Shown piece by piece: positions 26,659 to 41,952 of a stretch of DNA of 64,000 bases. Below the pieces are notes generated by a model that was given only the letters and a program-made list of their open reading frames with translations, was not told the DNA's origin and did no database searches. Source of the stretch: Bacteroidales bacterium (GTDB taxonomy: Bacteria; Bacteroidota; Bacteroidia; Bacteroidales; UBA3663); NCBI GenBank assembly GCA_017449065.1, contig JAFSKF010000055.1, forward strand, positions 4,301-68,300, written 5' to 3'. Within the stretch, counting starts at the first letter, position 1, and each line of letters begins with the position of its first letter. A program made the translations under genes and the position numbers.

Positions 26659-29589
26659 ATGAAGACCGATAAACAGATGGCTGCAGCTGCAGCGAAATTC
26701 GCCCAGAGATGGAAAGGCAAAGGCTATGAGCGCGGACAGAGCCAGCTGTTCTGGGCCGACCTGCTCACCAGCGTCTATGGCGTGGAGAACCTTCCGGAGT
26801 TCGTCCGCTACGAGGAGCAGGTCACTTCGATGGTGGATAGCACCAACTTCATCGATGTGCACATCCCATCAACAAAAGTGCTTATCGAGCAGAAATCCAT
26901 CCATGTGGATTTGCGCAAGCCCATCAAGAAAGGCGACGGCTATATCACTCCCTTCCTGCAAGCCAAGCAATACATCGTGAACATGCCGCAGAAGGAGCAT
27001 CCCAAATGGGTGGTGACCTGCAATTTCAAGTCGTTTCTGGTTTACGATATGAACCAGCCTAACAAAGAGCCGGATGAAATTCTTTTGGAAGACTTGGGGA
27101 CGGAATACTACCGACTGAAGTTTCTGGTCGATGCACAGAGCGAACATATCAGCAAGGAGATGGAGGTGTCGATGCAGGCCGGCGAGATTGTGGGCAGAAT
27201 CTACGACGCCTTGCTGAAGCAGTATGACGACAATTCGCCCGAAGCCCTGCGCTGGCTCAACATCCTCTGTGTGCGCATCGTGTTCTGTCTGTATGCCGAA
27301 GATGCGGGCGTGTTCGCCAGAGACCAGTTCCACGACTACCTGATCCGCTACGATGCCGACGACCTGCGCAATGCCCTGATCCGGCTGTTCGACGTGCTGA
27401 AGACCCCGACCGAGAAACGCAGCAAATACCTCAAGGACGACCTCAAAGCCTTCCCCTACACCAACGGCGGCCTGTTCGAAGAGGAGATAGAGATTCCGCA
27501 GTTCACCGACGAACTCAGGCAGACGCTGCTGCACAATGCGAGCCTCGACTTCGACTGGAGCAAGATCTCGCCTACCATCTTCGGAGCCATGTTCGAGAGC
27601 ACGCTCAATCCGGAAACGAGACGTTCCGGCGGTATGCACTACACCTCGATCGAGAACATCCACAAGGTCATCGACACGCTGTTTCTGAACGATCTGTGCA
27701 GGGAATTCGACATCATTCTGGAAGAGAAAGTCGAACGGCAGCGCGTAAAGCGGCTCGATGCCTTTCAGGACAAACTTGCCTCGCTCACCTTCCTCGATCC
27801 GGCTTGCGGCAGCGGCAACTTCCTCACCGAAACCTATCTTTCGCTGCGACGTCTGGAGAACGACGTTATCCGTGCCAAATATCACGGTCAGTCCATGCTG
27901 GGCGCCTTTGTGAATCCCATCAAGGTCAGCATCCAGCAGTTCTATGGCATCGAAATCAACGACTTTGCCGTCACCGTTGCCACCACAGCCCTATGGATCA
28001 GCGAGGCCCAGATGCTGGCAGAAACGGAGCGCATCGTGCATCAGGACATCGACTTCCTGCCGCTGAAGCCCTACCATAATATCCGCGAGGGGAATGCGCT
28101 CCGAATGGAGTGGGATGTGATTGAAGAAAAGTCGGATATTCCTACGATTCATGCAGAAAAAGTACACCTGATTGTTGAATCGGAGCCGAAAATGGTCAAA
28201 GATTCTTCTGTTGTCGAATACGGAGAGCTGAATGTAATAACGAAGCATTTTGAAAGCGCCAACGAACCGGAGAGTAAGTTCCGACGGGTACATTACGACT
28301 ACATCATCGGAAATCCGCCGTTTGTAGGTGCCAACATGATGAGCAAAGAGCAACGTGCAGACCTTCGCCACGTTTTCGGTTCAAAGTGGAAGAACATTGG
28401 TGAAATGGATTATGTGACAGCATGGTATATGCAAGCGGCCCGCGTAATGAAAGGAAGGGATACCCGTGCTGCGCTTGTTTCTACCAACAGTGTATCGCAA
28501 GGAGAACAGGTCGCTAATTTGTGGCAACCTCTCTTCGAACAGCTTGAAATGCATATTGATTTTGCACACAGAACTTTCCGATGGGATAGCGAAACGACAC
28601 AAAAAGCACATGTACATTGTGTGATTATTGGTTTCAGTAATGCAAAAAACAAGGCTCCCAAGATAATATATAATGGAGAGAATGTGCGAGAGGCAGCGAA
28701 TATTAACGCCTATCTTATGGATGCTCCCAATGTGTTTGTCGGAAGTCGAAGTAAACCATTGTGTGACGTTCCCGAGATTCGCAAGGGAAACCAGCCGACC
28801 GATGGCGGACACCTAATTATAGAATCGGAAGATCTTGAAGCGTTCCTTGCACGTGAACCGAAGGCAGAAAAATTCATCAAACGGCTGATTGGTGCTAAGG
28901 AATTTATCAATAATAAGTTACGATATTGTCTGTGGTTGAAGAATGTATCCCCTGCTGAATTAAGGCAGATGCCTGTGGTTATGCAACGTATAGAGGGCGT
29001 TCGTCAAATGCGCAAAACAAGTAGCGATCCTGCAACGAGAAAACTAGCTGATACTCCTTGGCTCTTCCGAGAGACTAATAATCCTGAGACGTATATAATT
29101 ATCCCGTCTGTATCGTCGGAAAAACGGAAATTTATTCCGATGGGCTTTTTAAAGTCCGATACAATACCGACCAACCTCGTTCTTATCATTCCCGATGCAA
29201 CGCTCTATCACTTTGGCATCCTTGAGAGCAATGTTCATATGGCGTGGATGCGAGCTGTATGCGGAAGATTGGAAATGCGCTATCGTTACTCAAAAGATGT
29301 AGTTTATAACAACTTCCCTTGGCCTAAGCCCTCCGAGGAACAAAAGATGAAGATTGAACAGACGGCACAAGCCATTCTTGACGCACGTGCTCTCTATCCG
29401 GATTCTTCTCTGGCAGACCTCTACGACGAACTGACAATGCCCGTAGAGCTTCGTAAGGCTCATCAGGAGAACGATCTGGCGGTGATGCAAGCCTACGGCT
29501 TCCCGGTCAGAAATACGTTTACGGAAAGCCAATGCGTGGCAGAACTGTTTAAGCTCTATCAGGAAATGACTGAAAAGAAAGGGAAATAA
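26659..29589 (+). CDS. Type IIL (MmeI-family) single-polypeptide restriction endonuclease / N6-adenine DNA methyltransferase
   Basis: 976 aa. The N-terminal PD-ExK-type motif D66-X10-E77-Q-K79 (FIDVHIPSTKVLIEQKS) matches the MmeI D-X9-EXK arrangement. The SAM motif is FLDPACGSGNFL, the catalytic motif is YIIGNPPFVG, and a long C-terminal target-recognition region follows. Confidence 0.85.
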   Translation: MKTDKQMAAAAAKFAQRWKGKGYERGQSQLFWADLLTSVYGVENLPEFVRYEEQVTSMVDSTNFIDVHIPSTKVLIEQKSIHVDLRKPIKKGDGYITPFLQAKQYIVNMPQKEHPKWVVTCNFKSFLVYDMNQPNKEPDEILLEDLGTEYYRLKFLVDAQSEHISKEMEVSMQAGEIVGRIYDALLKQYDDNSPEALRWLNILCVRIVFCLYAEDAGVFARDQFHDYLIRYDADDLRNALIRLFDVLKTPTEKRSKYLKDDLKAFPYTNGGLFEEEIEIPQFTDELRQTLLHNASLDFDWSKISPTIFGAMFESTLNPETRRSGGMHYTSIENIHKVIDTLFLNDLCREFDIILEEKVERQRVKRLDAFQDKLASLTFLDPACGSGNFLTETYLSLRRLENDVIRAKYHGQSMLGAFVNPIKVSIQQFYGIEINDFAVTVATTALWISEAQMLAETERIVHQDIDFLPLKPYHNIREGNALRMEWDVIEEKSDIPTIHAEKVHLIVESEPKMVKDSSVVEYGELNVITKHFESANEPESKFRRVHYDYIIGNPPFVGANMMSKEQRADLRHVFGSKWKNIGEMDYVTAWYMQAARVMKGRDTRAALVSTNSVSQGEQVANLWQPLFEQLEMHIDFAHRTFRWDSETTQKAHVHCVIIGFSNAKNKAPKIIYNGENVREAANINAYLMDAPNVFVGSRSKPLCDVPEIRKGNQPTDGGHLIIESEDLEAFLAREPKAEKFIKRLIGAKEFINNKLRYCLWLKNVSPAELRQMPVVMQRIEGVRQMRKTSSDPATRKLADTPWLFRETNNPETYIIIPSVSSEKRKFIPMGFLKSDTIPTNLVLIIPDATLYHFGILESNVHMAWMRAVCGRLEMRYRYSKDVVYNNFPWPKPSEEQKMKIEQTAQAILDARALYPDSSLADLYDELTMPVELRKAHQENDLAVMQAYGFPVRNTFTESQCVAELFKLYQEMTEKKGK

Positions 29590-29763
29590 AGGGTCTCTCC
29601 TTCAGCCAGTCGAACCGGCCTTTATCGGCTTCATGCTGATGCCACGAAGTCCAATAGACGGATGCGGGAAGGCTGTTTCTGCATAAAAGGACGCCCATTT
29701 TCGGGAGTCCTTTCTGAAAAATATGCTTAGAAACACAAAAACAGCTACGAAAACATATAAGCA

Positions 29764-31209
29764 TTAGTTAGAAATCGTCAAAGTTGTCTTATCGCAGATC
29801 AATCGGAAACCGACATAAGCGGCTTTATCTTCCGTGAATGCCAAAGAGAAATTAACTCGATTATTAATTAAAAGAGCGTTAGATACAGGTGTAATTGCAT
29901 TTTCTGCACTATTAAAATAGCCGCCCATATATTTATAGGCGTAATACACATTATACGTATGGGTACTTCCTGTATTTGTCCATTCTCCCACATTTCCACT
30001 CATATCATAAAGGCCCAACTCATTAGGAAGTTTCTGTTTAACCCCATGAGGCGTTCCATTACTGTTTAATGAGAACCACGCGACATCTGCAGCTATATTT
30101 CCTCCACAATAGGTTGTACTCTTCGATAAATTCCCTCCTTTGGCTGCAAAAGACCATTCAGCTTCGCTTGGTATAGAAAAAACACTCCCTGTTTCTAAAT
30201 TTAACCTGCTAATAAATGCATTGCATTCGCTTAACGAAACGTTTGTCACTGGCATACTTGGATCCTTTATCGTTGACGGATTCGTCTGCATAACAGCTTC
30301 CCAAAGTTCCTGAGTAACCTCAGTTTCTCCCACATAATAGCAATTTCCATTTAGGCCCGAAACGCCATTATAGACTTTCATCATGCGGAAACTAACTCCA
30401 GCAACAGTAAAATCCTTAAAACGGACTGCTTTCCAGCCATTCATATTTTCAGAGGTCGGGATATTCAGATAACCGCTTTTTCCTTGTGCCAGGACTTTCG
30501 AACTAACTGTTTTTTCAAACGCCAGGTTGTTTGCCCTATCGTGTATGGTTATTTTGCGATTATCCTCTTCTTCAAAAAAGCCGTAGTAATAATCTGAAAA
30601 TCCGTCTTTCAGAACGCTGCCATCAAAAACAGAATCTCCCTTAACAAACTCATTATCTTCCAGACTGTAACTTCGATAAAAGGATATTCCTTCTGCTATA
30701 AAAGATTGCTTGGATGTACCTTTTAGCCTGATTCGTCCTGTCATAGGCTTTAAAATCGCATCCACTTTAACTACTTTGTCGTTGAACGAATAAGTGGCAC
30801 TATTATCTGCAAAAATAGCCGTTGTCTTGTTCAATGTAACTGCACTGTAGGAACTTTCTGCGGCATTTTCAAAATAATAACATTCGCATACGGCGTTATC
30901 GACCTCAGTCAATGAACCATAAATCTCCAAATCCCACTTTGATGCTGCGGAACTATATTTTGCCATTCCGCTGATTCTATCGTTTCCTGACGAAAACTGA
31001 AAATATACCTTTGAACCATCTTCCCAAGTTTCGGCTAAAACAGACCGAGTAGTACCCTCACTGTCGAAGTCTTCCTTATCTGTATTCAGTTCAATCTCCG
31101 CATAAGTTACGACTCTATCTTCTTTAGGCTGAACCAAATCTTCTGCATCATTAGAACATGACGCTATCAGAAAAGCCAAAGGAGTAAATAAGACAAGTAA
31201 TTTCTTCAT
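29764..31209 (-). CDS. Surface lipoprotein: paralogous N-terminal ~230-aa domain plus C-terminal FGE-sulfatase-fold domain lacking the catalytic Cys pair (operon gene 7)
   Basis: The lipobox is LIASC, followed by the acidic stretch SNDAED. FGE-fold motifs are present: GETEVTQELWEAVM, ECNAFISRLN, PSEAEWSFAAKGG and LGLYDMSGNVGEWT. No CxxxxC occurs where FGE has its active site. Confidence 0.8.
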   Translation of the reverse strand: MKKLLVLFTPLAFLIASCSNDAEDLVQPKEDRVVTYAEIELNTDKEDFDSEGTTRSVLAETWEDGSKVYFQFSSGNDRISGMAKYSSAASKWDLEIYGSLTEVDNAVCECYYFENAAESSYSAVTLNKTTAIFADNSATYSFNDKVVKVDAILKPMTGRIRLKGTSKQSFIAEGISFYRSYSLEDNEFVKGDSVFDGSVLKDGFSDYYYGFFEEEDNRKITIHDRANNLAFEKTVSSKVLAQGKSGYLNIPTSENMNGWKAVRFKDFTVAGVSFRMMKVYNGVSGLNGNCYYVGETEVTQELWEAVMQTNPSTIKDPSMPVTNVSLSECNAFISRLNLETGSVFSIPSEAEWSFAAKGGNLSKSTTYCGGNIAADVAWFSLNSNGTPHGVKQKLPNELGLYDMSGNVGEWTNTGSTHTYNVYYAYKYMGGYFNSAENAITPVSNALLINNRVNFSLAFTEDKAAYVGFRLICDKTTLTISN

Positions 31210-31278
31210 AGTATGCTTTGTTTAGATTTATCATTATGACATTTATTAGCCACTTTATTTTCGTTATCAAATAGAATC

Positions 31279-32778
31279 CTACAACGGAATAACGACAGGT
31301 TGTTTCCCACGATATGCGGGTTGAGTCATACCAATGCGTGCACCTGTATAGGTGGGATCACATATCACATATTTCCTGTTATCAACCATTACATAATCCC
31401 CAGAAACCTCCTGATGGAAATTCACTGCGCTCCAAAGATGTCCTGGCGAATAGAGCAAAACTACATCCAAACCCACTAATTTACGGACCAGAAGAGATAA
31501 TAATATAGACCGGTCCTCACAATCGTTATTCGGGTAATAGAAATTCTCCTCAAAAAAGAACGGTTTCTCATAACCGAACTGTTCGTTGTCGGTTGCATAG
31601 CTAAAACCATATTGGAGGAAATCCATCAGCATTGAGACTTTTTCATACTCTGTCTTTCCGTCAAGTGCCTTCCGAAGAGGTGGCATCAACTGTCTGCCGA
31701 CATCTTCCGACAAGGGCTGCCGTGCATAAAATCCCCAAGGATAGCCACAGAAATAAGGTTCTGATTCATAGTAGTCCATCAGATTCTTATTGACACTAAC
31801 AGAGACTTTAACTTCTGGATAACGTTGGGAATAAACCGTTCTCTTTTCACTTTCAATATTACTTAACACCATTTCAGAAGGGCACTCAAAGTCAATTGGA
31901 CGTATGGCGTCTTTCATATTCAGACGATAAGTGTAGATCTGTTCGTTTTTTATGTTTGTGTCAAGAATATAATATGTCTTACCGTCAATTGTCAAGAAAG
32001 CGAAGGTGTATGCTTCCATCGTAAATGGACAAAGAATCAGCAACCGGTTGCTTGCGGATCTTGCCATACGCACATCATAACCCAACTGATTCATTAACCA
32101 TGCCTGCAACAGAACCGCTTCATTTCCTTGTGTGTCTTCCACTTTCCGTGAAACGGATTCACAAAGTTTGAAAGTTGCCCATCCATTCAATTTCATATTC
32201 CGCTGCAAATTCGAACAGTCAGCAACGAACGAACCCGTATTTACAGACGCCAATTTATACAAGCAATCAGCCACGTCTTTTTCCGTGCAGGATGCAAGTC
32301 GGAATTTTAATTCATCGGTAACCGAAATACTGCAACCCGTTCCAAAAAAAATCACATTAATCTTCTTTGGTTCGCCCTTATCCCCCTTGGGAACTTCTGG
32401 AACCACTATCGGAACTGGTTTGACAGGCTTCTTATCTGGTAAAATCTCACCATGAGGAAGTGGAGAAGGTTCCACTGGAGCCACATCTTCTTTCGGAAGG
32501 ACTACAGGTGGAACAACAGGTTTGGGTTCCGTGTGTTTCTTCCTGCCAGGCAAAACTTCGAATAAATCCCATTTTTGCCGAGCATAGGCTGCAAACTCCT
32601 CATTCTTTTGTTTCCGATACTGTTCAAACTTCCGATATTGTTCCGTGCGATAGTCCGAAAATTCCGCCCTCTTCTGATTCCTGAAAGCCTCAAATTCAGA
32701 CTTTTTGTCAAATTGGGCCAGCACTGTCACAGATAACAGTGCACCAAATAGTGATAAAACAATTCTTAGTTTGAACAT
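31279..32778 (-). CDS. Secreted transglutaminase-like (Cys-His-Asp papain-fold) protein (operon gene 6)
   Basis: 499 aa. Order of parts: signal peptide, charged helical segment, Pro-rich linker, then a C-terminal core of DCEDRS..GHLWSAV..ICDPT that matches the transglutaminase-core pattern. Confidence 0.7.
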   Translation of the reverse strand: MFKLRIVLSLFGALLSVTVLAQFDKKSEFEAFRNQKRAEFSDYRTEQYRKFEQYRKQKNEEFAAYARQKWDLFEVLPGRKKHTEPKPVVPPVVLPKEDVAPVEPSPLPHGEILPDKKPVKPVPIVVPEVPKGDKGEPKKINVIFFGTGCSISVTDELKFRLASCTEKDVADCLYKLASVNTGSFVADCSNLQRNMKLNGWATFKLCESVSRKVEDTQGNEAVLLQAWLMNQLGYDVRMARSASNRLLILCPFTMEAYTFAFLTIDGKTYYILDTNIKNEQIYTYRLNMKDAIRPIDFECPSEMVLSNIESEKRTVYSQRYPEVKVSVSVNKNLMDYYESEPYFCGYPWGFYARQPLSEDVGRQLMPPLRKALDGKTEYEKVSMLMDFLQYGFSYATDNEQFGYEKPFFFEENFYYPNNDCEDRSILLSLLVRKLVGLDVVLLYSPGHLWSAVNFHQEVSGDYVMVDNRKYVICDPTYTGARIGMTQPAYRGKQPVVIPL

Positions 32779-32784
32779 ACCAAC

Positions 32785-33636
32785 TTAGAAATTATAAGTC
32801 AATGAAAGTCCGGCATAATCAGGCCCTACGGTCGGCACCATACCGAAACGGTTCTCTCCGGCAGGTTTCACCTTTACTTGCCTTGCGCCCTTTGCCACAG
32901 CAGCATCTAAGACATTATAGACCCAGACAGCAATTCCGGCACCAATGCATACATTACGTCCCGTTTCCCAGTTAGATTTTTTATCCTCATACTGTTTTGC
33001 AAATTTGGGAGTTTCTTTAATTTTACGCTCATAAGAACTACATTTGTTTTCGCAAAACAACATTCCGGATACCGCAGCAGCCTCAGCTGCAAAAAAACAA
33101 ATACCCTTCACCCGGCTACCTTTATACCACTGCCCCGCTCCAGGGACAACTGACATCAGCACAGGAGCCACTCCATAAGAAGTCGTTAGATAGGTCCGGT
33201 CGAATACGGGATGATCCTCAACTGCAACCATAAACAATGTATGCATCTTGACCAATCCTTGTTCTTGGGTAACATATTCATCAACTGGATAAGCCTGCAG
33301 TTCAAACTGTTTACCCGACACCTGCATCCTAACATCCACCTGATCACGAATGGTCTCATTCATCTGTCCGTTGACGACTGTCTGTTCTATGTTGCGAAGC
33401 TTACCACTTTCAACATTCACCTGAACGGCACGGGTCAGTTGTTCGTTTGAAGCCAGTTTTTTCTTGGCTTCTTCGCGGGCACTTGCTATATCAGTTGCAT
33501 ACGAAACCACTTCCACAAACTTGTAGGTGTGGTTCATTTCCTGTGGGGTATTGCCGACCCACCTGGGCTTTTGTGCCACCAATGTGGTGGACAAAAGTCC
33601 AAGTAAGACAAAACAGATATCACGGAGTTTTATCAT
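32785..33636 (-). CDS. Secreted protein with LPP20-like N-domain and hydrophobic C-terminal region, PGAGQWYKG motif (operon gene 5)
   Basis: 283 aa with a signal peptide. The C-terminal half has 2-3 hydrophobic segments resembling Bacteroidetes DUF5683 and ends in ..LSLTYNF. The family assignment is tentative. Confidence 0.5.
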   Translation of the reverse strand: MIKLRDICFVLLGLLSTTLVAQKPRWVGNTPQEMNHTYKFVEVVSYATDIASAREEAKKKLASNEQLTRAVQVNVESGKLRNIEQTVVNGQMNETIRDQVDVRMQVSGKQFELQAYPVDEYVTQEQGLVKMHTLFMVAVEDHPVFDRTYLTTSYGVAPVLMSVVPGAGQWYKGSRVKGICFFAAEAAAVSGMLFCENKCSSYERKIKETPKFAKQYEDKKSNWETGRNVCIGAGIAVWVYNVLDAAVAKGARQVKVKPAGENRFGMVPTVGPDYAGLSLTYNF

Positions 33637-34214: not shown

Positions 34215-34242
34215 AGAGGTTATTTTAGTTTATTGTTACTAA

Positions 34243-35607
34243 TTAATAAGATAATAATCTCAAACCTATAGCATATGAAGCCGAAGTAAATGAAGAATTA
34301 GAACTATATGATGAACATTTGACATAATTCTGACTATCACTATAGTATCCTCCATAATAAGAAAATGAATTACCTGATGCCAAAGTCATTTCTGATACAT
34401 TGCCGCTCATGTCATAAATTTCCAGTTCGTTCGGCTTCAAGGTCTTCACATCATGTCTCGAAGAATTACTATTGCCAGAATACCAAGCAACCTCAGCAAC
34501 AGAATTGCTCCCAGAGTAAGTATATCCCTGGGTTAAATTTCCGCCTTGAGCGGCAAAGAACCACTCAGAAGCAGTAGGCAAACGGAAGTTTTCTCCGGTT
34601 TTGGCATTCAGTTTCGCAATGAAAGTAAGACAATCATTGTAAGATACATTGGCTACCGGTAAATTATCTCCTGAAAGATTCGTGTTCATCACCGCATTCC
34701 ACAATGCCTGGGTAACCTCAGTCTCCCCAATGAAGAAACTATAATAGGAAGCGTTGCCTACCACACGAATCATTCGGAAAGACACCTTTCCTATCGAATA
34801 GTCCTTAAACTTAACAGTTGTCCACCCGCTACGTTTGTCAAGCGTCGGGATATCGAGATATCCACTTTTGCCGACTCCCAGCGCATTACTTCCGAAAGTA
34901 CGTACAAACGAGACATTGTTCTCCTTATCGTTGAAAATCAACTCTCGGTTATCTTCGTCTGCAAAGAAACCGTAGATATAGTTTGAATAACCGTCTTTTT
35001 CTGTTGTTGAGATTATACTCGGGGCAGCAGATTCGAAGGTATTGCTTTCCAAATTATAGTTAGTATAGCAAGTTACACCATCCAGAAAAAACTCCTGAAG
35101 AGCAGATCCTTTCATGCGGATTCGGCCAGTCATGGGTTTCAGGTTTGCTGTCACTTTCACCGTATTATCTTCAACTGAATACGAAGAAGATTTATCGATA
35201 AAAATCGCTGTTGCGTTTGTTAAAGAAACCGATCTGTATGTTGCTTCTCCTGCATTTTCGAAATAATATGCCTCACACTGACCATCATTGGTGATCGGAA
35301 GGGAACCATAATACTCGATGGTCCAGGATGAAGAAGATTTGCTATACTCTGCCACTCCGTCAACAAGAGAATTACCCACCGAAAACTGAAGGTAAACCTT
35401 GGAGCCATCGTCCCAGGCATCAGCAGCAACTGCGCGAGTTGTCCCTTCGGAGTCGAAGCTCGGCTTGGCGCTGTTGAACTCCATCGTAGCATAATGAACT
35501 TCACGCTCTTTGGTTGGAGGTTCCAAATTATCGATATCGTCACTAGTGCACGACACCGAAATCAAAGTCATTACAACGAATGACACTAAATAATGTAATT
35601 TTTTCAT
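34243..35607 (-). CDS. Surface lipoprotein, paralog of 29764-31209 (N-domain plus cysteine-pair-less FGE fold) (operon gene 3)
   Basis: I prefer the start at M15 (MKKLHYLVSFVVMTLISVSC, ATG at 35605-35607). The lipobox is followed by the acidic stretch TSDDID. By eye, roughly half of the aligned residues are identical to gene 7. Confidence 0.8.
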   Translation of the reverse strand: MKKLHYLVSFVVMTLISVSCTSDDIDNLEPPTKEREVHYATMEFNSAKPSFDSEGTTRAVAADAWDDGSKVYLQFSVGNSLVDGVAEYSKSSSSWTIEYYGSLPITNDGQCEAYYFENAGEATYRSVSLTNATAIFIDKSSSYSVEDNTVKVTANLKPMTGRIRMKGSALQEFFLDGVTCYTNYNLESNTFESAAPSIISTTEKDGYSNYIYGFFADEDNRELIFNDKENNVSFVRTFGSNALGVGKSGYLDIPTLDKRSGWTTVKFKDYSIGKVSFRMIRVVGNASYYSFFIGETEVTQALWNAVMNTNLSGDNLPVANVSYNDCLTFIAKLNAKTGENFRLPTASEWFFAAQGGNLTQGYTYSGSNSVAEVAWYSGNSNSSRHDVKTLKPNELEIYDMSGNVSEMTLASGNSFSYYGGYYSDSQNYVKCSSYSSNSSFTSASYAIGLRLLSY

Positions 35608-35639
35608 AGCTTTTAAATAAGTGTTATACATTAATATTT

Positions 35640-37307
35640 TTAATTCCAATCTTCATCATTGTCGAATTCTTTCTTATCAATATTTCCGATACCCGTAGGA
35701 TTCTCGTTCATATCTTCATCCGAACCATAGCCTTCTTTGCCCAGAGAACCTTCTGTAGATGGATTCCCGTTCAAATCTTCATCCGAACCATAGCCCTCTT
35801 TACTAAAAGTGCCTTCGGCAGATTGATTCTCGTTCAAATCTTCATCCGAACCATGTCCTTCTTTGCCGATTGTTCCCTCTGTATTAGATCCGACATTAAG
35901 ATCTTCGTCTTCCCCAAAGCCTTCCTTACCGATAATACTTTCAGAAGATGATTTTCCATTTAAGTCTTCATCCTGTCCATAGCCTTCTTTATTAATCGTA
36001 CCCTCAGATGAAGTCTCATTCGTTAAGCTATCATCATCTCCGTAACCATCCTTACCAATGGTTCCTTCAGAAGACGTATTTCCTGTCAAATCTTCCTCTG
36101 TGCCATATCCGTTCTTTTCGAAAGAACCCTCTCCATCCGCTGAAGGATTCAAGTCCTCATCCTCTCCATAGTGTTGAACACCGAACTCCGTTCCATCCTC
36201 TTCTTCTGACAAAGTGGTAAACTGAACGACTTCGCCATAAGAAGAGCCTCTTTCGTTAGTCGCGAAAGAACGAATGAAATAAGATGTCTTTGCTGTCAAC
36301 ATTGCCAACCGGGTCTCTAACATAGAAGACTTGCCACAAACCACTTTTGTTCCGTTATCAAAGGATGGCTTATTTGATACTGAATAGATAAATCCTGCTT
36401 CTGAAAGCGTTCCGTTCCCCAAATCAGACACGGATGCTATCGCCGTTGCGAAATGACTGCGAATTTTGCTGACTTCAACAGCAGAAACCGTTGGCAAGAC
36501 AATTTCTTTTTGATTTTCAATATTTACAAGAGTCCAACCTTGCAATACATTGTCAGTGCTTGGAAGAGAAATAAAACCGCTCTGCCCGGCAGCAAGGACA
36601 GCATCGTCAAAACTGCGAATAAAAACGCCTTGTCCAGTTGCATCGACAACCAGTTGACGCTGAGAAACATTAGAAAAACCAACATAGAAATAATCGGTAT
36701 CTCCAGACTTGTCGAATGAAGAAGATATTTTATTTTTGCTGATTTCAAAAGTATTAGTGGTAATGTTATATTCAGTATGATACTGCAATCCAGAAACACC
36801 AAATTTTGCTGATGCCTGCCCTTTGAAACGGACGCGTCCGGTACGGGGGGAAAGCAATAACTTGACAAACATTTCCGAATCCTCGGTGAATGTGAAACTA
36901 CCCTCAACATCCTGATAGATGGCAGAACGTGCATTTAAAGAAACTGATTGTGATGAAGTTCCTGCATCATTTCTGAAAAAATAAGCCTCACAATCTCCAT
37001 CCGTATCCGGTTCTATCTGTCGGGAAGTAGTTATGGTCCACTGTCCGTCTGTCTGACTATAGTTGGCAACACCGGGAATCCGATTGTCTCCAATCTTCAA
37101 CTGCAAGTATAACCGAGCACCTTCCTCCCAAGCATAAGAAGAACGTGTCGGCTGACCGAATCCTGTTAATTCGGCTTCGAGAAATAACCGGTATGAAAAA
37201 AGGGATTCCGGCTTCGAAGCTGGTCCTGAAATCTCCGATTCCCGATAACAGGATTCTGTCAACAGTGACAATAATAGGGCTATGCTATATATGCATATTC
37301 TTTTCAT
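35640..37307 (-). CDS. Lipoprotein: shared N-domain, one Fn3-like module, then nine 21-aa acidic repeats (operon gene 2)
   Basis: 555 aa with the lipobox-like LLTESC. The N-domain aligns with genes 3 and 7 (..LSPRTGRVRFKG.. versus ..LKPMTGRIRLKG..). The C-terminus is ..DNDEDWN. Confidence 0.75.
   Translation of the reverse strand: MKRICIYSIALLLSLLTESCYRESEISGPASKPESLFSYRLFLEAELTGFGQPTRSSYAWEEGARLYLQLKIGDNRIPGVANYSQTDGQWTITTSRQIEPDTDGDCEAYFFRNDAGTSSQSVSLNARSAIYQDVEGSFTFTEDSEMFVKLLLSPRTGRVRFKGQASAKFGVSGLQYHTEYNITTNTFEISKNKISSSFDKSGDTDYFYVGFSNVSQRQLVVDATGQGVFIRSFDDAVLAAGQSGFISLPSTDNVLQGWTLVNIENQKEIVLPTVSAVEVSKIRSHFATAIASVSDLGNGTLSEAGFIYSVSNKPSFDNGTKVVCGKSSMLETRLAMLTAKTSYFIRSFATNERGSSYGEVVQFTTLSEEEDGTEFGVQHYGEDEDLNPSADGEGSFEKNGYGTEEDLTGNTSSEGTIGKDGYGDDDSLTNETSSEGTINKEGYGQDEDLNGKSSSESIIGKEGFGEDEDLNVGSNTEGTIGKEGHGSDEDLNENQSAEGTFSKEGYGSDEDLNGNPSTEGSLGKEGYGSDEDMNENPTGIGNIDKKEFDNDEDWN
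35643..36209 (-). repeat. Coding tandem repeat, 9 x 63 nt (21 aa), consensus xNxSxEGTIGKEGYGxDEDLN
   Basis: The YG/FG/HG-acidic-(L/M/W)N motif recurs at residues 380, 401, 422, 443, 464, 485, 506, 527 and 548. The period is exactly 21 aa, and the protein ends at the end of unit 9. Confidence 0.85.
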
Positions 37308-37331
37308 AATGTCAATTTGCTGTTATAAACG

Positions 37332-40300
37332 TTAGTTCCAATCTTTGTCTTCACCATAATCGTCAAAATCCACGTCATTCCCAGCGGGCTCTGCTGCTGT
37401 GGTAAATGTCACTTGTTCGCCCAAGGTCGTACCTTTTTCATTAGTAGCATAAGCTCTGACGTAGTATGTTGTCTCAGGCAAAAGTGTAGATATTTTAACT
37501 GATAAGTCGCTTGTTTTTCCACAAGACACCTTATGGTTGGACATTACAGGATTAGAAGAAGTAGAATAAACGAATCCTGCATCACTGACCGACCCGTTTC
37601 CTGCAGAAATAACGGATGCAGAGAGCGAAACTGATTTGTAAGTCACTCGACCAACGCTGACATTAGTCACAGAAGGCGGCACAATTTCGAGTGTCGCAAA
37701 ATCTGTCTCCTCTCCGTAACTTATACCAGCTTCATTGATCACATATGCCCGCACGTAATAAGTCGTATTATCCGACAATCCAGTCACGGTTTTCGAGAAA
37801 TAGCCGGTTTGTACACCCCCACAACTGATTCTCGTTGCATTGTTCACTATCGGTTCTGGAGACTTGGAATATACGAATCCGCAATCTACTATCGTCCCAT
37901 CTCCGTCACTGACAATCGAGCTACGGAAGGTGGCAGAACCGGTTCCGATACTCGATACTGCAACTTTAGCCGATTGAGGCAATTTGATTTCGTGAGTGGT
38001 TTTGAATCCGACATTGTTTCCATAAAAAGTTTCTCCGTCTTCGGTCTGAACATAAGCACGGACATAGTAATCTGTTAATTCAGACAAACCCGTAATGGTC
38101 AATAAAAATCGGTCTGTATATGCTGTCGAATACATATGATCATCGGAAATTGTCGGATAAGGAGACTTACTCCAACAAACACCCCGTTCCGCAATAGAAT
38201 GTCCACCTTTGTCAGATATCGATCCTCCTGTTGTTGCCTTATCATGAATGACATCGCTAACAGCAATGGTTGTCAAACTTACAACATCGTAAGCCGTCGT
38301 AAAAGAAACATCTTCGCCATAGGCTGTTCCGACAGAATTCGTTGCATAGGCCCTGATGTGATAAGTCGTATGCGGCAGAAGGTCTGTCAACTTAGAGGTA
38401 TAAGCTCCGACCACTGTTGCAGAACCCAGAGTTGTCTTATGATCCAATAACGTTGGATTAGAAGTCGTATTCCACACATGTCCATGTTGAGTAATACCAG
38501 TTTCATCACCGATTCTAAGAATGTTACCGGAAGCTGTAGCTTCTCGAGCCTGAACGCTCATAATCGCATCAGTTTCTACTAATGGAACCTTATTCTCATA
38601 AGCCGTTTCAAAAGTTACATCATTGCCGTAGTACGTTTCTCCGTCTGCGGTAAGTACGTATGCCCTCACATGATAGACCGTTTGTTCGTTTAATCCAGAA
38701 ATGCGAATACTGTATCGGTCTGTCGTTTCCTGTGAGCTGAGTTTATCGTCTGACGTTGTCGGATTATTAAAGGTGCTCCAGCATATTCCCCTTTCTCGAA
38801 CCACATGTCCTCCTTTATCCGAAATGATTCCTCCAGTAACGGCAGAGTTGTAGGTTATACCGGAAACTTCCAACGTTGCCAAAGTGACATCATCGTAAGC
38901 CGTAGTAAACATCACATTTTCACCATACGCTGTGCCGGTAGAATTGGTTGCGTAAGCGCGCACATAATAGGTTGTGTGAGGTTGAAGCTCTGACAGTATC
39001 GAAGTGTACGTTCCAATCGTGGAAGTGTAGCCCAACGACGTCTTGTTGTTTGCTGTTGTCGGATTGGTTGAAGTGCTCCATACATGTCCGTATTGTGAGA
39101 CGCTTGTCTCGTTGCCCATTGTCACTATATTTCCTGATACCGTTGCCTGTTTAGGGCGGATATCAGCGATCGATCCTGTTTCAACAGAAGGTACCTGAGG
39201 CTGGACTTTGGTTTCAAAAACCTGTTGTTCAGAATAGTTAATTCCTTCTGCATTTTCAGCGTATGCACACACATAGTATCTTGTCCCAGGTTGCAATTGA
39301 GAAGCTGAATATTCGAAATCCTTTGCCAACTCGCTATCTCCCAAATTGCACGACTGCCCCTTACCCAGCATCGGATGTTCTTCTGTACTCCAGCAAAAGC
39401 CGTGCTTTGTTACTTTTGCACTACCTAACGACACGATTCCGCCTTTGAATTTTGCTGAAACATAACCTATACTGTCAACAGTATAGAAAGTAACCGTCGG
39501 CTTGTCTTTCGATGGCACATTCATTCGGACTGGGATGTCTATATTGTCTTCACCAACTGTAAGCTTTAAGGCACCAGAATAGTCTCCAGCATTTAATCCT
39601 GTTCGGTCAACAACAACATTTAGCGCATCATTTCCAGATGTTATTGTACCACTCGTCTTCGAAGGAATAATCCAAGTATTCGACGGCGTCAGTGCATAGC
39701 TAACAGTCTGACTACCTGTATTTGTAAGCGTAAGTGTGATAGAAGTTGTAATGGAGCCAAAATCCAGTTCCTCCGGAGAAATTTTAACCGTCAGACCTTG
39801 AACACTGATATTAACTTTTACAACTGCACTACCCCCGTTACTTGAAATAGCAATAGTTTGCGAATATGTTCCTTTGGAAAGGCCTGTCCTATCTGCATTC
39901 AGAATTACAGACGAAGATTTCCCTATGACTGTAGTCCCTGAAGTCGGAATACATTGCAACCAGGAGATATCTTCGCTAATCTGCCAATTCAAGGCTGCTG
40001 CCCCGACATTTTTTATATCTAAGGTTAACGAAGTGTTTTCGTTGCCGAAATCAAAAGTTTCCTGACTGAGAGAGAGAACCGCCGTAGCTGGAGTCAAGTG
40101 GAAATCAAGTGTGGCTGTAACTCCTGTCTTAACAGCAACGCTCTTAACGTCTTCTTGGTATCCGCTTTTGGTGGCCTGAACACGATAGGAATCGGCATCT
40201 ATATCCTCAAAAGAATACATGCCATTCTGTCCTGTGGTTGTTGTTTTCCCAAGAGGAGACAAAGTCATTGCTACACCTTGGAGGGGTCTGTCCTGGGTAT

Positions 40301-40439
40301 CATAAACCGTACCGGAAATATTACCTGTAATGTCCACCGGATCTGAACTGCCACAAGACATCACGATAAGTGCTGGAAGCACCTCTAGTACATATCTGAT
40401 TATTTTTTTCTTCCGATGATTCATAAATAAAAAGTGCAT
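37332..40439 (-). CDS. Large surface lipoprotein: CarboxypepD_reg-like domain, two BACON-like domains, seven Fn3-like modules, acidic C-terminal tail (operon gene 1)
   Basis: 1035 aa (or a start at M6). The lipobox is IVMSC. The N-terminal domain carries GNISGTVYD..GVAMTL..TTTGQNGMYSF. The BACON-like pattern is L.LS...FDFG......L.I.N.G...L.W......W. The repeated modules carry G(F/I/V)CWS / HGHVWS ... YYVRAY. The C-terminus is DDYGEDKDWN. Confidence 0.8.
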   Translation of the reverse strand: MHFLFMNHRKKKIIRYVLEVLPALIVMSCGSSDPVDITGNISGTVYDTQDRPLQGVAMTLSPLGKTTTTGQNGMYSFEDIDADSYRVQATKSGYQEDVKSVAVKTGVTATLDFHLTPATAVLSLSQETFDFGNENTSLTLDIKNVGAAALNWQISEDISWLQCIPTSGTTVIGKSSSVILNADRTGLSKGTYSQTIAISSNGGSAVVKVNISVQGLTVKISPEELDFGSITTSITLTLTNTGSQTVSYALTPSNTWIIPSKTSGTITSGNDALNVVVDRTGLNAGDYSGALKLTVGEDNIDIPVRMNVPSKDKPTVTFYTVDSIGYVSAKFKGGIVSLGSAKVTKHGFCWSTEEHPMLGKGQSCNLGDSELAKDFEYSASQLQPGTRYYVCAYAENAEGINYSEQQVFETKVQPQVPSVETGSIADIRPKQATVSGNIVTMGNETSVSQYGHVWSTSTNPTTANNKTSLGYTSTIGTYTSILSELQPHTTYYVRAYATNSTGTAYGENVMFTTAYDDVTLATLEVSGITYNSAVTGGIISDKGGHVVRERGICWSTFNNPTTSDDKLSSQETTDRYSIRISGLNEQTVYHVRAYVLTADGETYYGNDVTFETAYENKVPLVETDAIMSVQAREATASGNILRIGDETGITQHGHVWNTTSNPTLLDHKTTLGSATVVGAYTSKLTDLLPHTTYHIRAYATNSVGTAYGEDVSFTTAYDVVSLTTIAVSDVIHDKATTGGSISDKGGHSIAERGVCWSKSPYPTISDDHMYSTAYTDRFLLTITGLSELTDYYVRAYVQTEDGETFYGNNVGFKTTHEIKLPQSAKVAVSSIGTGSATFRSSIVSDGDGTIVDCGFVYSKSPEPIVNNATRISCGGVQTGYFSKTVTGLSDNTTYYVRAYVINEAGISYGEETDFATLEIVPPSVTNVSVGRVTYKSVSLSASVISAGNGSVSDAGFVYSTSSNPVMSNHKVSCGKTSDLSVKISTLLPETTYYVRAYATNEKGTTLGEQVTFTTAAEPAGNDVDFDDYGEDKDWN
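37980..39191 (-). repeat. Tandem duplication of a two-module (~202 aa, ~606 nt) unit inside the Fn3-like array
   Basis: Residues 417-618 (PSVETGSIADIRPKQATVSGN..) and 619-820 (PLVETDAIMSVQAREATASGN..) align colinearly with many identical blocks, for example TAYGE(N/D)V.FTTAYD and DKGGH...ERG.CWS. Confidence 0.6.
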
Positions 40440-40731: not shown

Positions 40732-40838
40732 CAACTTATTTATAAAAAAAAGACCAAAATTGTGTGCATTTAATGAAAAAATATGTTATACAACACATTA
40801 TTAGGACCATTCTCTTTCTGGAAAGCCCACCAATCTAT

Positions 40839-40891
40839 ACGGAAAGCCAATGCGTAACCAAGTTGTTGAGTTATATCTGGGAATGACTGAA
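40839..40891 (+). pseudogene. Degenerate second copy of the 3' end of an MmeI-family gene
   Basis: The first 17 nt are identical to 29521-29537 (acggaaagccaatgcgt). Overall 42 of 54 hand-aligned positions are identical, with one 1-nt gap. It encodes ..YTESQCV.. compared with ..FTESQCV.. in the intact gene. Confidence 0.5.
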
Positions 40892-40909
40892 TATTTAAAC
40901 TATACAAAA

Positions 40910-40929: not shown

Positions 40930-41060
40930 TTAATATTTATGAATCCCAATGACTCTTAATTCGTTATTTCCACGCTTGAATCGCTTAAATTATGCTATTA
41001 GATAGAATAGCAGACAACCTGATATCGCGAAATAGTGGACTTAAAAACAACTGTCCCTGA

Positions 41061-41738
41061 TCACTTTTCATGCACAGCGCGAACTGCACAACAAAAATAC
41101 AGGTCGCATATCATAAACTGTTTTTTAGAAGTATCGGTGTTAAAATTCAGATGATTGCAACCATACTCGTATCCATTAACGATATAAACCTCATCGGCAT
41201 CAGGTGTACCACACCAATAATTACCTTCATAGCTGATATTGGTATTATCCGTAAACTCAAAATCCATTGAAGAAAAAGACTCGCTCAAATAGTTACTTCC
41301 CGAATTAGGCAAAAAGATAGAATTGCCATTTTTTCCTGTGACACGAAAACCATTGTGTCCATTAACAGTTTCAACATTCCATTCACATTCGTCAACCAAT
41401 TCCCTCATTTCTTTACCTGCTGGCATTCTCCAACCATCTCCCATCATCACCTTAGCTATATCTTTGTCCGTTCCACTAACGTTCATACTTTCTAGCTTAG
41501 GAGATTTGACGGTTCCGGTAACATTCCCCAATGGAACTCTGACACCGACCTCCTCTGGATTCTCGGCACCTACATTGCAAACTGCCCAGTTTACACTTAA
41601 GCCCAAATCTACTCCATAGGATGCGGACTCCTGAATGGAAGCCAATTCTTGTGTATTTTCCGTTTTACTGCTTTGGGAACCGCATCCTGCAAATACAACA
41701 AATGCCAAGATGTTAGCAACAATTAAAAACTTTTTCAT
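41061..41738 (-). CDS. Lipoprotein with FISUMP/DUF1566-like domain
   Basis: I prefer the start at M24 (MKKFLIVANILAFVVFAGC), which lies downstream of the minus-strand -7 box TATATTTG (41779-41786). Motifs NWAVCNVGA and GDGWRMPAGKEMRELV resemble the Fibrobacter-paralogous/DUF1566 pattern (W+.P...E...L). Confidence 0.6.
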   Translation of the reverse strand: MKKFLIVANILAFVVFAGCGSQSSKTENTQELASIQESASYGVDLGLSVNWAVCNVGAENPEEVGVRVPLGNVTGTVKSPKLESMNVSGTDKDIAKVMMGDGWRMPAGKEMRELVDECEWNVETVNGHNGFRVTGKNGNSIFLPNSGSNYLSESFSSMDFEFTDNTNISYEGNYWCGTPDADEVYIVNGYEYGCNHLNFNTDTSKKQFMICDLYFCCAVRAVHEK

Positions 41739-41952
41739 GATGTTAAAAATTAGTATTAATGAGATATGTTTACGGGTGCAAATATAAAGGAAAAAGCTTT
41801 TCGACAATCAAAACGCTTGCAGTTTTTTTGAAAAATCCGCTACATTTTCGCATCATGCTAAAAAAATGATAGGATTGGAATGTCCGAATTATTATATCAG
41901 GACTCATGCCATCTCAATGCTATCCTTTTTTGTCGGCCTTATCACAACGCCC

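What the first reader, a model, noticed from the sequence alone, without database searches (positions are those of the whole stretch)
28100..41900. A sharp drop in G+C begins inside the RM gene and extends across the surface operon
Seen, from hand counts of single 60-nt lines:
- 37/60 G+C at 27961 and 33/60 at 28021;
- 25/60 at 28141, 25/60 at 28201 and 20/60 at 28621;
- 25/60 at 30001 in the operon;
- 31/60 at 13001 in gltB, for comparison.

The switch falls just after the GNALRMEW block, around codon 487. It therefore sits upstream of the NPPF motif and the recognition domain.

Inference: the 3' half of the RM gene and the following ~12 kb (the operon and the FISUMP-like lipoprotein gene) came from one lower-GC source. 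This would make the RM gene a chimera with a swapped specificity region.
Basis: partly seen in the sequence, partly recalled or inferred. Interest (0 to 1): 0.6.

Follow-up and report, generated by a model that had tools for sequence, protein, structure and literature searches.

The report
Mosaic restriction gene beside low-GC island
The sharp G+C drop is real, but it is two ordinary things lying side by side: the swappable, AT-rich DNA-recognition cassette that MmeI-type restriction genes carry in many genomes, and a separately explained low-GC operon of surface proteins next to it.

Summary
All seven hand counts are exact. GC3 of the MmeI-family gene (26659-29589) falls from 0.76 to 0.45 after codon 485 (nt 28114). 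The block 28114-41900 has 41.8% GC, among the lowest 1.4% of equal-sized windows in the genome.

The gene is a true mosaic. Its two halves have different nearest relatives, and AU tests reject each half's tree on the other half's data.

The "one lower-GC source" inference is not supported:
- The same GC3-rich arm / AT-rich cassette / GC3-rich tail profile occurs in 18 homologues from other genomes and in an unlinked paralogue in this genome.
- Where long flanks were checked (two homologues and the paralogue), the DNA next to the gene is GC-rich.
- Homologues sit in unrelated contexts, and distant relatives of the operon have no MmeI gene nearby.
- Codon usage and oligonucleotide signature tie the 3' half to the operon no better than unrelated cassettes.

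One clue keeps co-transfer alive at about 20%. A decayed 55-nt copy of the gene's 3' end (40838-40891) lies beyond the operon, so the operon is bracketed by MmeI 3' ends.

Verdict: a known kind of event, specificity-cassette exchange, next to an accessory island.

The parts
26659..28113 (+). Conserved 5' arm of the MmeI-family gene (codons 1-485). It comprises the PD-(D/E)XK nuclease, the helical spacer and the AdoMet-binding part of the methyltransferase, up to EGNALRMEW. GC3 is 0.76.
   Evidence: Pfam MmeI_N, MmeI_hel and MmeI_Mtase. Aligns to MmeI 5HR4 residues 10-473. Identity to many metagenomic proteins is 86-98%. GC3.
28114..28302 (+). Variable insert of about 56-63 aa (codons 486-548), lying between the EGNALRMEW block and motif IV. 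It is absent from MmeI and from about a quarter of the homologues. The G+C drop begins here.
   Evidence: The gap between the two matched stretches to MmeI is query 492-547. All tblastn matches of relatives break at about 491 and 546. The insert is 16-58% identical or missing in homologues.
28303..29313 (+). Specificity cassette (codons 549-885): NPPF motif IV, the rest of the methyltransferase lobe, and the target recognition domain. GC3 is about 0.42.
   Evidence: Pfam MmeI_Mtase C-terminal part and MmeI_TRD 688-890. Only 44-62% identical to the best 5'-arm relatives; nearest relatives are P0126 and P0121. The GC3 trough occurs in 18/18 homologues.
29314..29589 (+). Conserved 3' arm (codons 886-976 plus stop), the C-terminal helical bundle. 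GC3 is 0.54-0.56, a weaker rebound than in comparable homologues.
   Evidence: Pfam MmeI_C 893-972. 70-89% identical to both groups of relatives. A second change point at codon 883 has an LLR of only 3.0. The arm3/arm5 GC3 ratio of 0.71 is the lowest of 19 genes.
29520..29574 (+). Left copy of the 55-nt direct repeat: the last 18 codons (TESQCVAELFKLYQEMTE) of the intact gene.
   Evidence: blastn gives 78% identity with 1 gap, E = 2e-5. Alignment.
40838..40891 (+). Decayed relic of an MmeI-family 3' end. It reads ..TESQCVTKLLSYIWE* after a 1-nt deletion, lies just beyond the operon's leader, and has the same orientation as the RM gene.
Evidence: (family D7). It is equally close to the gene's own 3' end (43/55) and to that of the best 5'-arm relative (41/51).
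29764..40439 (-). Seven-gene operon of secreted or lipidated proteins, convergent with the RM gene. It holds two FGE-sulfatase-fold proteins, a DUF5683-like protein and a BACON/fn3 1035-aa protein. GC3 is 0.34-0.44.
   Evidence: ORFs; Pfam and NCBIfam; GC3. The 1035-aa protein has no orthologue in 23 congeneric genomes. The nearest relative of the 499-aa protein outside the strain is 44% identical.
41061..41807 (-). Low-GC (GC3 0.36) gene for a 248-aa protein with no family assignment. It lies beyond the relic, so it is outside any block bounded by the repeat.
   Evidence: No copy lies next to any MmeI homologue examined.

Best explanation
Two independent low-GC features abut here.

(1) The restriction gene. 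The gene at 26659-29589 encodes an apparently intact single-chain type IIL (MmeI-family) restriction-and-modification enzyme. Genes of this family are modular:
- a conserved 5' arm (nuclease, spacer and the AdoMet-binding half of the methyltransferase);
- a variable specificity cassette, running from just before the NPPF catalytic motif through the target recognition domain;
- a conserved 3' arm.

The cassette holds the DNA-contacting parts. Relatives replace it by homologous recombination in the arms. Because one recognition domain serves both activities, this changes cutting and methylating specificity together. In every host examined the cassette is AT-richer at silent sites than the arms. 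The most likely reason is that cassettes turn over faster than their composition can adapt to the host. The GC3 step at codon 485 is the 5' cassette boundary of this gene.

(2) The operon. The seven-gene surface operon (29764-40439) and the 248-aa gene (41061-41807) are accessory, low-GC DNA of the kind that makes up about ten such regions in this genome. They lie at a break in synteny. The operon entered at, or recombined with, the 3' end of an MmeI gene and left a 55-nt relic at 40838-40891.

What is shown: the change point, the family-wide profile, the phylogenetic conflict, and clean cassette swaps in relatives. What is inferred: the reason for the AT-richness, and the order and number of events at this locus.
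For: Change point: GC3 0.759 to 0.446 after codon 485, LLR 50.9 against a permutation maximum of 9.6.

Identity of the enzyme:
- All five MmeI Pfam domains score far above their cut-offs.
- MmeI 5HR4 matches at E = 1.9e-194, with the nuclease D/E/K residues, motif I and NPPF all conserved.

The GC3 profile is family-wide:
- In 18 of 18 homologous genes from other genomes the cassette GC3 is below that of the 5' arm. The mean profile runs 0.55-0.62, then 0.27-0.42, then 0.48-0.60.
- Change points fall at codons 469-492, with a rebound at 843-892, in P0121, P0005 and P0154. In P0121 and P0005 both flanks have about 55% GC.
- The unlinked paralogue at C25:59978-62680 is 34-38% identical. It steps from 0.69 to 0.42 after codon 455, which is 20 codons before its NPP motif. 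The LLR is 32 against a permutation maximum of 8.6. GC3 rebounds to 0.68, and the downstream DNA has 57% GC.

Cassettes are exchanged:
- The halves have different nearest relatives.
- AU tests give p = 5e-4 and 6e-75.
- Of 931 pairs with at least 95% identical 5' arms, 463 have cassettes less than 65% identical.
- L037 and L038 share the 5' arm (89% nt), the 3' arm (81%) and the downstream GmrSD gene (91%). Their codons 553-849 are unrelated.

The operon is independent of the cassette:
- Homologues lie in eight different contexts, none with the operon.
- Relatives of the operon have no MmeI gene nearby.
- The cassette's codon usage fits the genome's low-GC3 ORFs, the operon and other cassettes equally well.
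- The unlinked paralogue's cassette and two foreign cassettes are compositionally closer to the operon than this gene's 3' half is.

Precedent: the variable recognition domain of modA has lower GC than its 5' and 3' regions and moves en bloc (PMC3311624). In MmeI, residues 487-489, just after NPPF, contact the bases (PMC4833311).
Against: - The low-GC tract runs without a break from codon 486 into the operon.
- This gene's 3' arm rebounds only to GC3 0.54-0.56, whereas homologues in GC-rich hosts reach 0.62-0.77. Its arm3/arm5 ratio of 0.71 is the lowest of 19 genes. This would fit a recombination tract that runs through the end of the gene.
- The 55-nt relic beyond the operon shows that the operon's arrival involved MmeI 3'-end sequence, so the two features are not wholly unconnected.
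- No close relative with an empty site or another cassette at this locus was found. The only other assemblies of the locus are 99.995-100% identical, so the events could not be ordered.
- Third-position identity of the 5' arm to its best relatives is only 40-67%. No recent donor of either half was identified.
Confidence: 0.72

Rival explanations
1. This is the first reader's model, made explicit as a single co-transfer. One homology-facilitated illegitimate recombination used the conserved 5' arm as its only homologous anchor. It brought in the present insert, cassette, 3' arm and the 11-kb operon as one lower-GC tract. The other end joined illegitimately 55 nt before the end of the resident gene. 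The old cassette was deleted and the old 3' tip was left at 40838-40891.
For: - Low GC is unbroken from nt 28114 to about 40.9 kb.
- The 3' arm's GC3 rebound is weak.
- A relic of an MmeI 3' end sits exactly at the far side of the operon, in the same orientation.
- In L026 too, a weak 3'-arm rebound goes with a low-GC defence island downstream.
Against: - The GC3 step at this codon needs no such event, because it is present in 18 homologues and in the paralogue, and where long flanks were checked no low-GC DNA adjoins.
- The documented swap in a relative is internal and keeps the 3' arm and the downstream gene.
- No contig links a related cassette to a related operon.
- Composition is not specific.
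- The low-GC 248-aa gene lies outside the repeat-bounded block.
- The relic cannot be assigned to either lineage.
Confidence: 0.2
2. The whole RM gene, already a mosaic, arrived together with the operon as one accessory island. It replaced an earlier MmeI gene at the site, of which only the 55-nt tip survives. On this reading the 5' half is also imported.
For: - The RM gene is patchy in the genus (28 of 61 genomes) and never lies in the same context.
- Synteny ends directly after the HD gene in the nearest relative, G006.
- GC3 of the 5' arm is in the top 2% of the genome.
- Relics of MmeI 3' ends occur downstream of an intact gene elsewhere, in L010.
Against: - No integrase, tRNA or other element boundary lies between 26197 and 26658. 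That spacer looks like two divergent promoters.
- Codon usage of the 5' arm fits the neighbouring core genes best.
- No other contig carries the gene and the operon together apart from the same strain.
Confidence: 0.1
3. The AT-richness of the cassette is not a trace of transfer at all. It would reflect a different evolutionary regime at silent sites, for example weaker selection or biased gene conversion for G/C-ending codons in a fast-evolving segment under diversifying selection. The arms would be held GC-rich by conservation or by frequent conversion. Exchange of cassettes still occurs, but it is not what sets the composition.
For: - The trough is seen even in members only 28-38% identical, and in hosts ranging from GC3 0.24 to 0.78.
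- The cassette value rises with that of the host arm but stays below it.
- GC1 and GC2 do not shift.
- Earlier notes of this scan report the same offset across many phyla. These notes are unchecked.
Against: - Near-identical arms carry unrelated cassettes. Turnover is therefore demonstrably fast enough to keep cassettes away from host composition.
- No test of selection or conversion was made here.
Confidence: 0.2

Closest known systems
MmeI (Methylophilus methylotrophus, PDB 5HR4) and the MmeI family of type IIL restriction-modification enzymes (Morgan et al. 2008/2009, PMC2582602, PMC2731913; Callahan et al. 2016, PMC4833311)
   Same: - Same five-domain single chain.
- E = 1.9e-194 to 5HR4 over residues 9-972.
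- Nuclease D/E/K residues, motif I (DPACGSGNFL) and NPPF are conserved.
- The residues aligned with MmeI E806/R808/R810 read E-x-R-x-R.
- One recognition domain serves both activities, so specificity can change in one step.
   Different: - There is a 56-aa insertion directly before NPPF.
- The residues aligned with MmeI A723/F737/Y738/E751 differ (D, R, E, S by my reading of the alignment). The recognition sequence is therefore probably not TCCRAC.
- No biochemical data exist.
En-bloc exchange of the DNA recognition domain in type III modA genes of Neisseria and Haemophilus (Gawthorne et al. 2012, PMC3311624)
   Same: - A variable recognition segment lies between conserved 5' and 3' regions that serve as homology for recombination.
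- The recognition segment has significantly lower GC than both flanks.
   Different: - The enzyme class differs: a type III Mod subunit rather than a single-chain type IIL enzyme.
- The modA genes are phase-variable through repeats, and none is seen here.
- Here the exchanged unit also includes the catalytic motif IV half of the methyltransferase.
Movement of target recognition domains in Helicobacter pylori type I, type IIG and type III genes (Furuta et al. 2011, 2012, 2014; PMC3983042, PMC3467074)
   Same: Recognition domains fall into homology groups that recombine between alleles and genes at conserved flanking sequence, which diversifies the methylome.
   Different: That work is within one highly recombining species. 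Here the exchange pool spans many rumen and gut Bacteroidales, including Xylanibacter/Prevotella.
Homology-facilitated illegitimate recombination (de Vries and Wackernagel 2002; cited from my own knowledge, not read here)
   Same: A one-sided homologous anchor with an illegitimate far junction and deletion of recipient DNA would produce the layout arm / foreign tract / relic seen here.
   Different: It has been demonstrated in naturally transformable laboratory strains. Nothing here shows that a single event occurred.

Membership tests
MmeI family (type IIL single-chain RM enzymes) | Five-domain architecture: N-terminal nuclease, helical spacer, gamma-class N6-adenine methyltransferase, TRD and C-terminal bundle, all in one polypeptide | tested here: met
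   Pfam MmeI_N 116 bits, MmeI_hel 71, MmeI_Mtase 280, MmeI_TRD 267 and MmeI_C 82, all against a cut-off of 27. 5HR4 matches at E = 1.9e-194.
MmeI family (type IIL single-chain RM enzymes) | Catalytic residues: PD-(D/E)XK (MmeI D70, E80, K82), AdoMet motif I, and motif IV NPPF | tested here: met
   The alignment to 5HR4 pairs FIDVH..IEQKS with FVDLF..IEMKS. DPACGSGNFL is at residue 380 and NPPF at 552.
MmeI family (type IIL single-chain RM enzymes) | Solitary gene with no separate methyltransferase or specificity subunit | tested here: met
   The neighbours are an HD-domain gene upstream and the convergent surface operon downstream.
MmeI family (type IIL single-chain RM enzymes) | Cleavage about 20/18 nt from an asymmetric site, with protection by methylation of one strand only | not testable with these tools
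   This needs enzyme assays or a methylome.
Specificity-cassette exchange between conserved arms (as in modA DRD and H. pylori TRD movement) | The arms and the recognition segment have conflicting phylogenies | tested here: met
   AU tests give p = 5e-4 and 6e-75. The sets of nearest neighbours are disjoint. Spearman correlation is 0.07-0.14.
Specificity-cassette exchange between conserved arms (as in modA DRD and H. pylori TRD movement) | Near-identical arms carry unrelated cassettes, with breakpoints at recurrent positions | tested here: met
   463 of 931 arm-identical pairs have cassettes less than 65% identical. Nucleotide homology ends at codons 487-496, 551-553 or 611. The pair L037/L038 shows a double crossover.
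Specificity-cassette exchange between conserved arms (as in modA DRD and H. pylori TRD movement) | A recent donor or recipient can be identified for this particular gene | tested here: not met
   The best 5' arm match is 91% aa, with 40-67% third-position identity. The best cassette match is 84% in the TRD. The event in this lineage is old or its partners are unsampled.
Integrative genomic island (for the operon block) | An integrase or recombinase gene and a tRNA or similar attachment site at a boundary | tested here: not met
   Pfam and NCBIfam assign no recombinase family to any ORF of 29764-43170. The nearest tRNAs are at 46751 and 47820.
Integrative genomic island (for the operon block) | Direct repeats bracket the inserted DNA | tested here: met
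   55 nt at 29520-29574 and 40838-40891, 78% identical, E = 2e-5. The repeat is the 3' end of the RM gene, not a known att site.
Integrative genomic island (for the operon block) | Absent from close relatives at an otherwise conserved site (an empty site) | tested here: inconclusive
   The 1035-aa protein has no orthologue in 23 congeners. However, the flanks are not syntenic in any of them.

The most novel reading that the evidence does not exclude
The conserved 5' arm of the MmeI gene acted as a one-sided homology anchor. A single recombination then imported the present cassette, the 3' arm and the whole 11-kb surface operon, and pushed the old 3' tip out to 40838-40891. More generally, the widely shared arms of MmeI-family genes would serve as landing pads through which Bacteroidales acquire neighbouring cargo that has nothing to do with defence.
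Probability: 0.2. Interest if true: 0.5.

Novelty: new member of a known kind. Interest (0 to 1): 0.25.

Why it matters
For annotation, the case shows that a sharp intragenic G+C step in a type IIL/IIG restriction gene marks the boundary of its exchangeable specificity module. On its own it should not be read as evidence that neighbouring low-GC DNA shares an origin.

For restriction-enzyme biology, the locus adds a rumen/gut Bacteroidales subfamily with hundreds of sequence clusters. In this subfamily near-identical nuclease and AdoMet arms carry unrelated recognition cassettes. That is a natural library of specificities with defined junctions, at about codon 487-496, at NPPF, and at about codon 850-890.

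The relic of a 3' end beyond the operon is a small pointer. It suggests that restriction genes may also be sites where other accessory DNA is taken up.

Tried and rejected
- **Empty-site comparison.** I searched 37-60 relatives for the HD, HerA, PagL-like, GH5 and BACON proteins and read the loci of G006, G003 and G014. The congeners are too diverged (66-79% aa in core genes). HerA and GH5 lie on different contigs in every one of them. Synteny stops right after HD in G006. No empty site could be defined.
- **Exact-protein look-up of the RM enzyme.** It is not on record. A look-up through the operon protein found only the same strain, 99.995-100% identical. There is therefore no within-species variation to exploit.
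- **Linking the cassette to the operon by composition.** Codon-usage likelihoods and dinucleotide and trinucleotide signatures against a GC-matched null do not discriminate. Unrelated cassettes are as close to the operon or closer.
- **Assigning the relic to the lineage of the 5' arm or of the cassette.** The result is a tie, and 54 nt is too short.
- **A transposon or invertible element upstream of the RM gene.** The 45-nt inverted repeat at 26322-26366 / 26551-26595 carries TAnnTTTG-type -7 boxes that point outwards to the HD and RM genes, and similar sequence recurs at other loci. I read it as two divergent promoters of one type, not as a mobile element.
- **A recombination signal in silent-site identity.** Third-position identity peaks at codons 451-480 (77-80%) just before the junction. 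This rests on 30 codons and two comparisons and was not pursued.
- **Terminator and tRNA scans at the boundaries.** They found nothing relevant.
- **First attempt at the paralogue analysis.** One search failed on an ORF-picking error. It was repeated correctly.

Full report
**The observation**

In 1-kb windows, G+C falls from 0.546 (27001-28000) to 0.459 (28001-29000). It stays at 0.35-0.45 until about 42 kb and returns to 0.53 at 43.5 kb.

The ORF 26659-29589 (976 aa) carries all five MmeI-family Pfam domains. A likelihood change point on its third-position G+C falls after codon 485 (nt 28114, support 28072-28135). GC3 is 0.759 before and 0.446 after, with a log-likelihood ratio of 50.9 against a maximum of 9.6 in 1000 permutations. 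First and second codon positions barely move.

The assembly has 49.1% G+C. Its long ORFs average GC3 0.584 (sd 0.087). The 5' half is therefore in the top 2% and the 3' half in the bottom 7%. The seven minus-strand genes at 29764-40439 have GC3 0.34-0.44, and the 248-aa gene at 41061-41807 has 0.36. The next genes recover to 0.56 and 0.66. The block 28114-41900 has 41.8% G+C, which places it in the lowest 1.4% of equal-sized windows. About ten such regions exist in the genome.

**What the gene is**

The protein matches MmeI (PDB 5HR4) at E = 1.9e-194 in two stretches. Query 9-491 aligns to MmeI 10-473, and query 548-972 to MmeI 477-904. It therefore has a 56-residue insertion directly before motif IV.

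The nuclease residues aligned with MmeI D70/E80/K82, motif I (DPACGSGNFL at 380) and NPPF (552) are all present. No separate methyltransferase lies beside the gene. I read it as an intact solitary type IIL enzyme.

The change point falls at the end of the EGNALRMEW block. This corresponds to about MmeI residue 467, 14 residues before MmeI's NPPF. In MmeI, residues 487-489, just after NPPF, contact bases together with the TRD (PMC4833311). The AT-rich part thus begins just upstream of everything that reads the DNA.

**The two halves have different relatives**

Separate searches of 5.8 billion proteins were run for each half:
- For residues 1-485, all 120 listed clusters are 86-91% identical.
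- For residues 486-976, the best hit is 77%. Several hits reach 77-79% over 87-89% of the segment, including proteins from Xylanibacter ruminicola and Prevotella sp. RM4.
- Only four proteins appear in both lists.

In an alignment of 236 homologues, the best 5'-half relatives are 86-98% identical up to residue 485. They are 38-58% identical in 486-548, 44-62% in 549-690, 48-60% in the TRD, and 70-89% again in 891-976. The best cassette relatives (TRD 78-84%) mostly have a different nuclease domain, 56-72% identical in residues 1-110.

Maximum-likelihood trees of 44 members give disjoint sets of nearest neighbours:
- For the arm: P0007, P0006, P0008 and P0005.
- For the cassette: P0126, P0121, P0147 and P0123.

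AU tests reject each topology on the other segment's data. Delta lnL is 2102 with p = 5e-4, and 2265 with p = 6e-75. The gene is a mosaic.

**The mosaic is how the whole family is built**

- Among 225 full-length members, 463 of 931 pairs with at least 95% identical 5' arms have cassettes less than 65% identical. One example is P0006 against P0012: arm 100%, cassette 49%.
- Of 458 pairs with at least 95% identical cassettes, 50 have N-terminal domains less than 75% identical.
- The correlation of arm and cassette identities is 0.07-0.14.
- At the DNA level, homology between members starts within 12 nt of the start codon. It ends at codons 487-496, 551-553 or 611. The upstream flanks are unrelated.
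- L037 and L038 share the 5' arm (89%), the 3' arm (codons about 849-957, 81%) and the downstream GmrSD gene (91%). Codons 553-849 are unrelated. This is a clean internal cassette replacement.

**The G+C step is also a family property**

- In 18 homologous genes from other genomes, cassette GC3 is below 5'-arm GC3 in every case. The margin is small in two very low-GC hosts. The mean profile runs 0.55-0.62, then 0.27-0.42, then 0.48-0.60.
- P0121 steps from 0.70 to 0.43 after codon 469 and returns to 0.68 at codon 892. P0005 steps from 0.78 to 0.48 after codon 470 and returns to 0.76. Both have flanks of about 55% G+C on both sides.
- The congeneric loci L002 and L004 show the same drop.
- A second MmeI-family gene in this same genome, C25:59978-62680, is only 34-38% identical. 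It steps from 0.69 to 0.42 after codon 455, which is 20 codons before its NPP motif. The LLR is 32 against a permutation maximum of 8.6. GC3 rebounds to 0.68, and 57% G+C DNA follows the gene.

The step at codon 485 therefore needs no help from the adjacent operon.

Arm GC3 follows the host, ranging from 0.24 to 0.78. Cassette GC3 stays at 0.20-0.54. This is what faster turnover of cassettes than of arms would give. The same low-GC recognition segment between higher-GC arms was reported for modA (PMC3311624). Earlier notes of this scan describe the same pattern in other MmeI, type IIG and DISARM methylase genes. Those are unchecked AI notes, used only as leads.

**Is the cassette linked to the operon?**

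- Homologues lie in unrelated contexts: dUTPase-M23 / CotH; an ATP synthase operon; DUF3822 / Schlafen-RhuM; ParAB-VapE; AbiH-HNH / GmrSD; and a VapE-HU island in X. ruminicola. None has this operon.
- The operon's 499-aa protein has only same-strain exact matches. Contigs L032 and L033 are 99.995-100% identical over 14.7-21.5 kb and have the same layout. The next relatives are at most 44% identical. Two of their contigs carry similar operons of secreted proteins but no MmeI gene.
- The 1035-aa protein has no orthologue in 23 congeners.
- The cassette's synonymous codon usage fits the genome's own low-GC3 ORFs (-1.130), the operon (-1.139) and pooled foreign cassettes (-1.152) about equally.
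- The 3' half lies at the 36th percentile (dinucleotide) and 11th percentile (trinucleotide) of distance to the operon among GC-matched genomic pieces. The unlinked paralogue's cassette and two foreign cassettes are closer.

Nothing specific ties the 3' half to the operon.

**What keeps a link possible**

It is 78% identical with one gap (E = 2e-5 in the local search, roughly 0.01 when scaled to gene against window). The orientation is the same, and the copy reads ..TESQCVTKLLSYIWE*.

The operon and its leader are thus bracketed by MmeI 3' ends. Incoming DNA either carried an MmeI 3' end or recombined with one. In addition, this gene's 3' arm rebounds only to GC3 0.54-0.56, with an arm3/arm5 ratio of 0.71, the lowest of 19 genes.

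Both facts fit a tract that ran through the end of the gene into the operon. They also fit an operon insertion at the gene's 3' tip that was independent of the cassette, or replacement of an older MmeI gene by an island.

The relic is equally similar to the gene's own end (43/55) and to that of the best 5'-arm relative (41/51). A comparable relic lies about 600 nt downstream of an intact homologue in G022 (L010), so such scars recur in the family.

I put single-event co-transfer of the whole 3' half with the operon at about 0.2.

**Limits**

- No empty site could be found. Congeners are 66-79% identical in core proteins, and synteny is lost around the locus.
- Third-position identity of the 5' arm to its best relatives is 40-67%. 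The exchange that produced this gene is therefore not recent, or its partners are unsampled.
- No integrase or tRNA marks the block.
- The cause of cassette AT-richness, whether turnover from a shared pool or a distinct silent-site regime, was not tested.

**Verdict**

The RM gene is a chimera with an exchanged specificity module, but so is the whole family, and its G+C step is intrinsic to that architecture. The low-GC surface operon next to it is a separate accessory island whose insertion involved the gene's 3' end. This is a clear new example of a known kind of event, of modest interest.

Noticed in passing
window 26322-26366 and 26551-26595 (between the HD gene and the RM gene): A 45-nt inverted repeat (84% complementary, 184 nt apart) is flanked by a 13-nt direct repeat, CCCTCTGAATCAC. 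Each arm carries a TAnnTTTG-type box pointing outwards: TAACTTTG towards the HD gene and TATATTTG towards the RM gene. Similar sequence recurs on contigs C32 and C36, and next to MmeI homologues in L003 and L016. I read it as two divergent promoters of one type. An invertible or mobile element is not excluded.
   Followed up: partly
genome contig C25:59978-62680 (outside the window): A second, intact-looking MmeI-family gene (900 aa, 34-38% identical) shows the same GC3 architecture: 0.69 / 0.42 / 0.68, with the step 20 codons before its NPP motif. Its neighbours are GC-rich.
   Followed up: yes
L010 781-903 (G022:C50, about 600 nt downstream of its MmeI gene); also L020 (G013:C4) and L016 (G008:C99): Fragments of MmeI C-terminal domains lie downstream of an intact homologue, stand alone, or are fused to an N-terminal fragment. 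These look like scars of replacement or deletion in this gene family in other congeners.
   Followed up: partly
L025, L028, L037, L038 (flanks of MmeI homologues): HU-HIG (PF18291) genes, VapE/BT4734-like primase genes and other defence genes (AbiH, HNH, GmrSD, Schlafen/AlbA_2, RhuM) recur beside MmeI homologues. Many copies therefore seem to sit in mobile or defence islands, unlike the copy in this window.
   Followed up: no
window 28114-28302 (codons 486-548): An insertion of about 56 aa directly before motif IV is absent from MmeI and from about a quarter of the homologues. Where present it comes in several unrelated versions (16-58% identity) that assort independently of the TRD type. Its function is unknown.
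   Followed up: partly
window 35698-36138: At least six tandem 63-nt (21-codon) repeats lie at the 3' end of the 555-aa operon gene. Shared modules occur among the operon genes, for example 30274-30330 with 34672-34728, and 38269-38408 with 38875-39014.
   Followed up: no
The only signal is a weak match of its lipoprotein signal region to PG1828-family lipoproteins (E = 0.002). It lies outside the repeat-bracketed block but is as AT-rich as the operon.
   Followed up: partly
window 29764-31209 and 34243-35649: The two FGE-sulfatase-fold proteins give sub-threshold matches to GldK/PorK, GldJ and the TIGR02171 lipoprotein family. Paralogues lie on contigs C48, C30 and C12 of the same genome.
   Followed up: no
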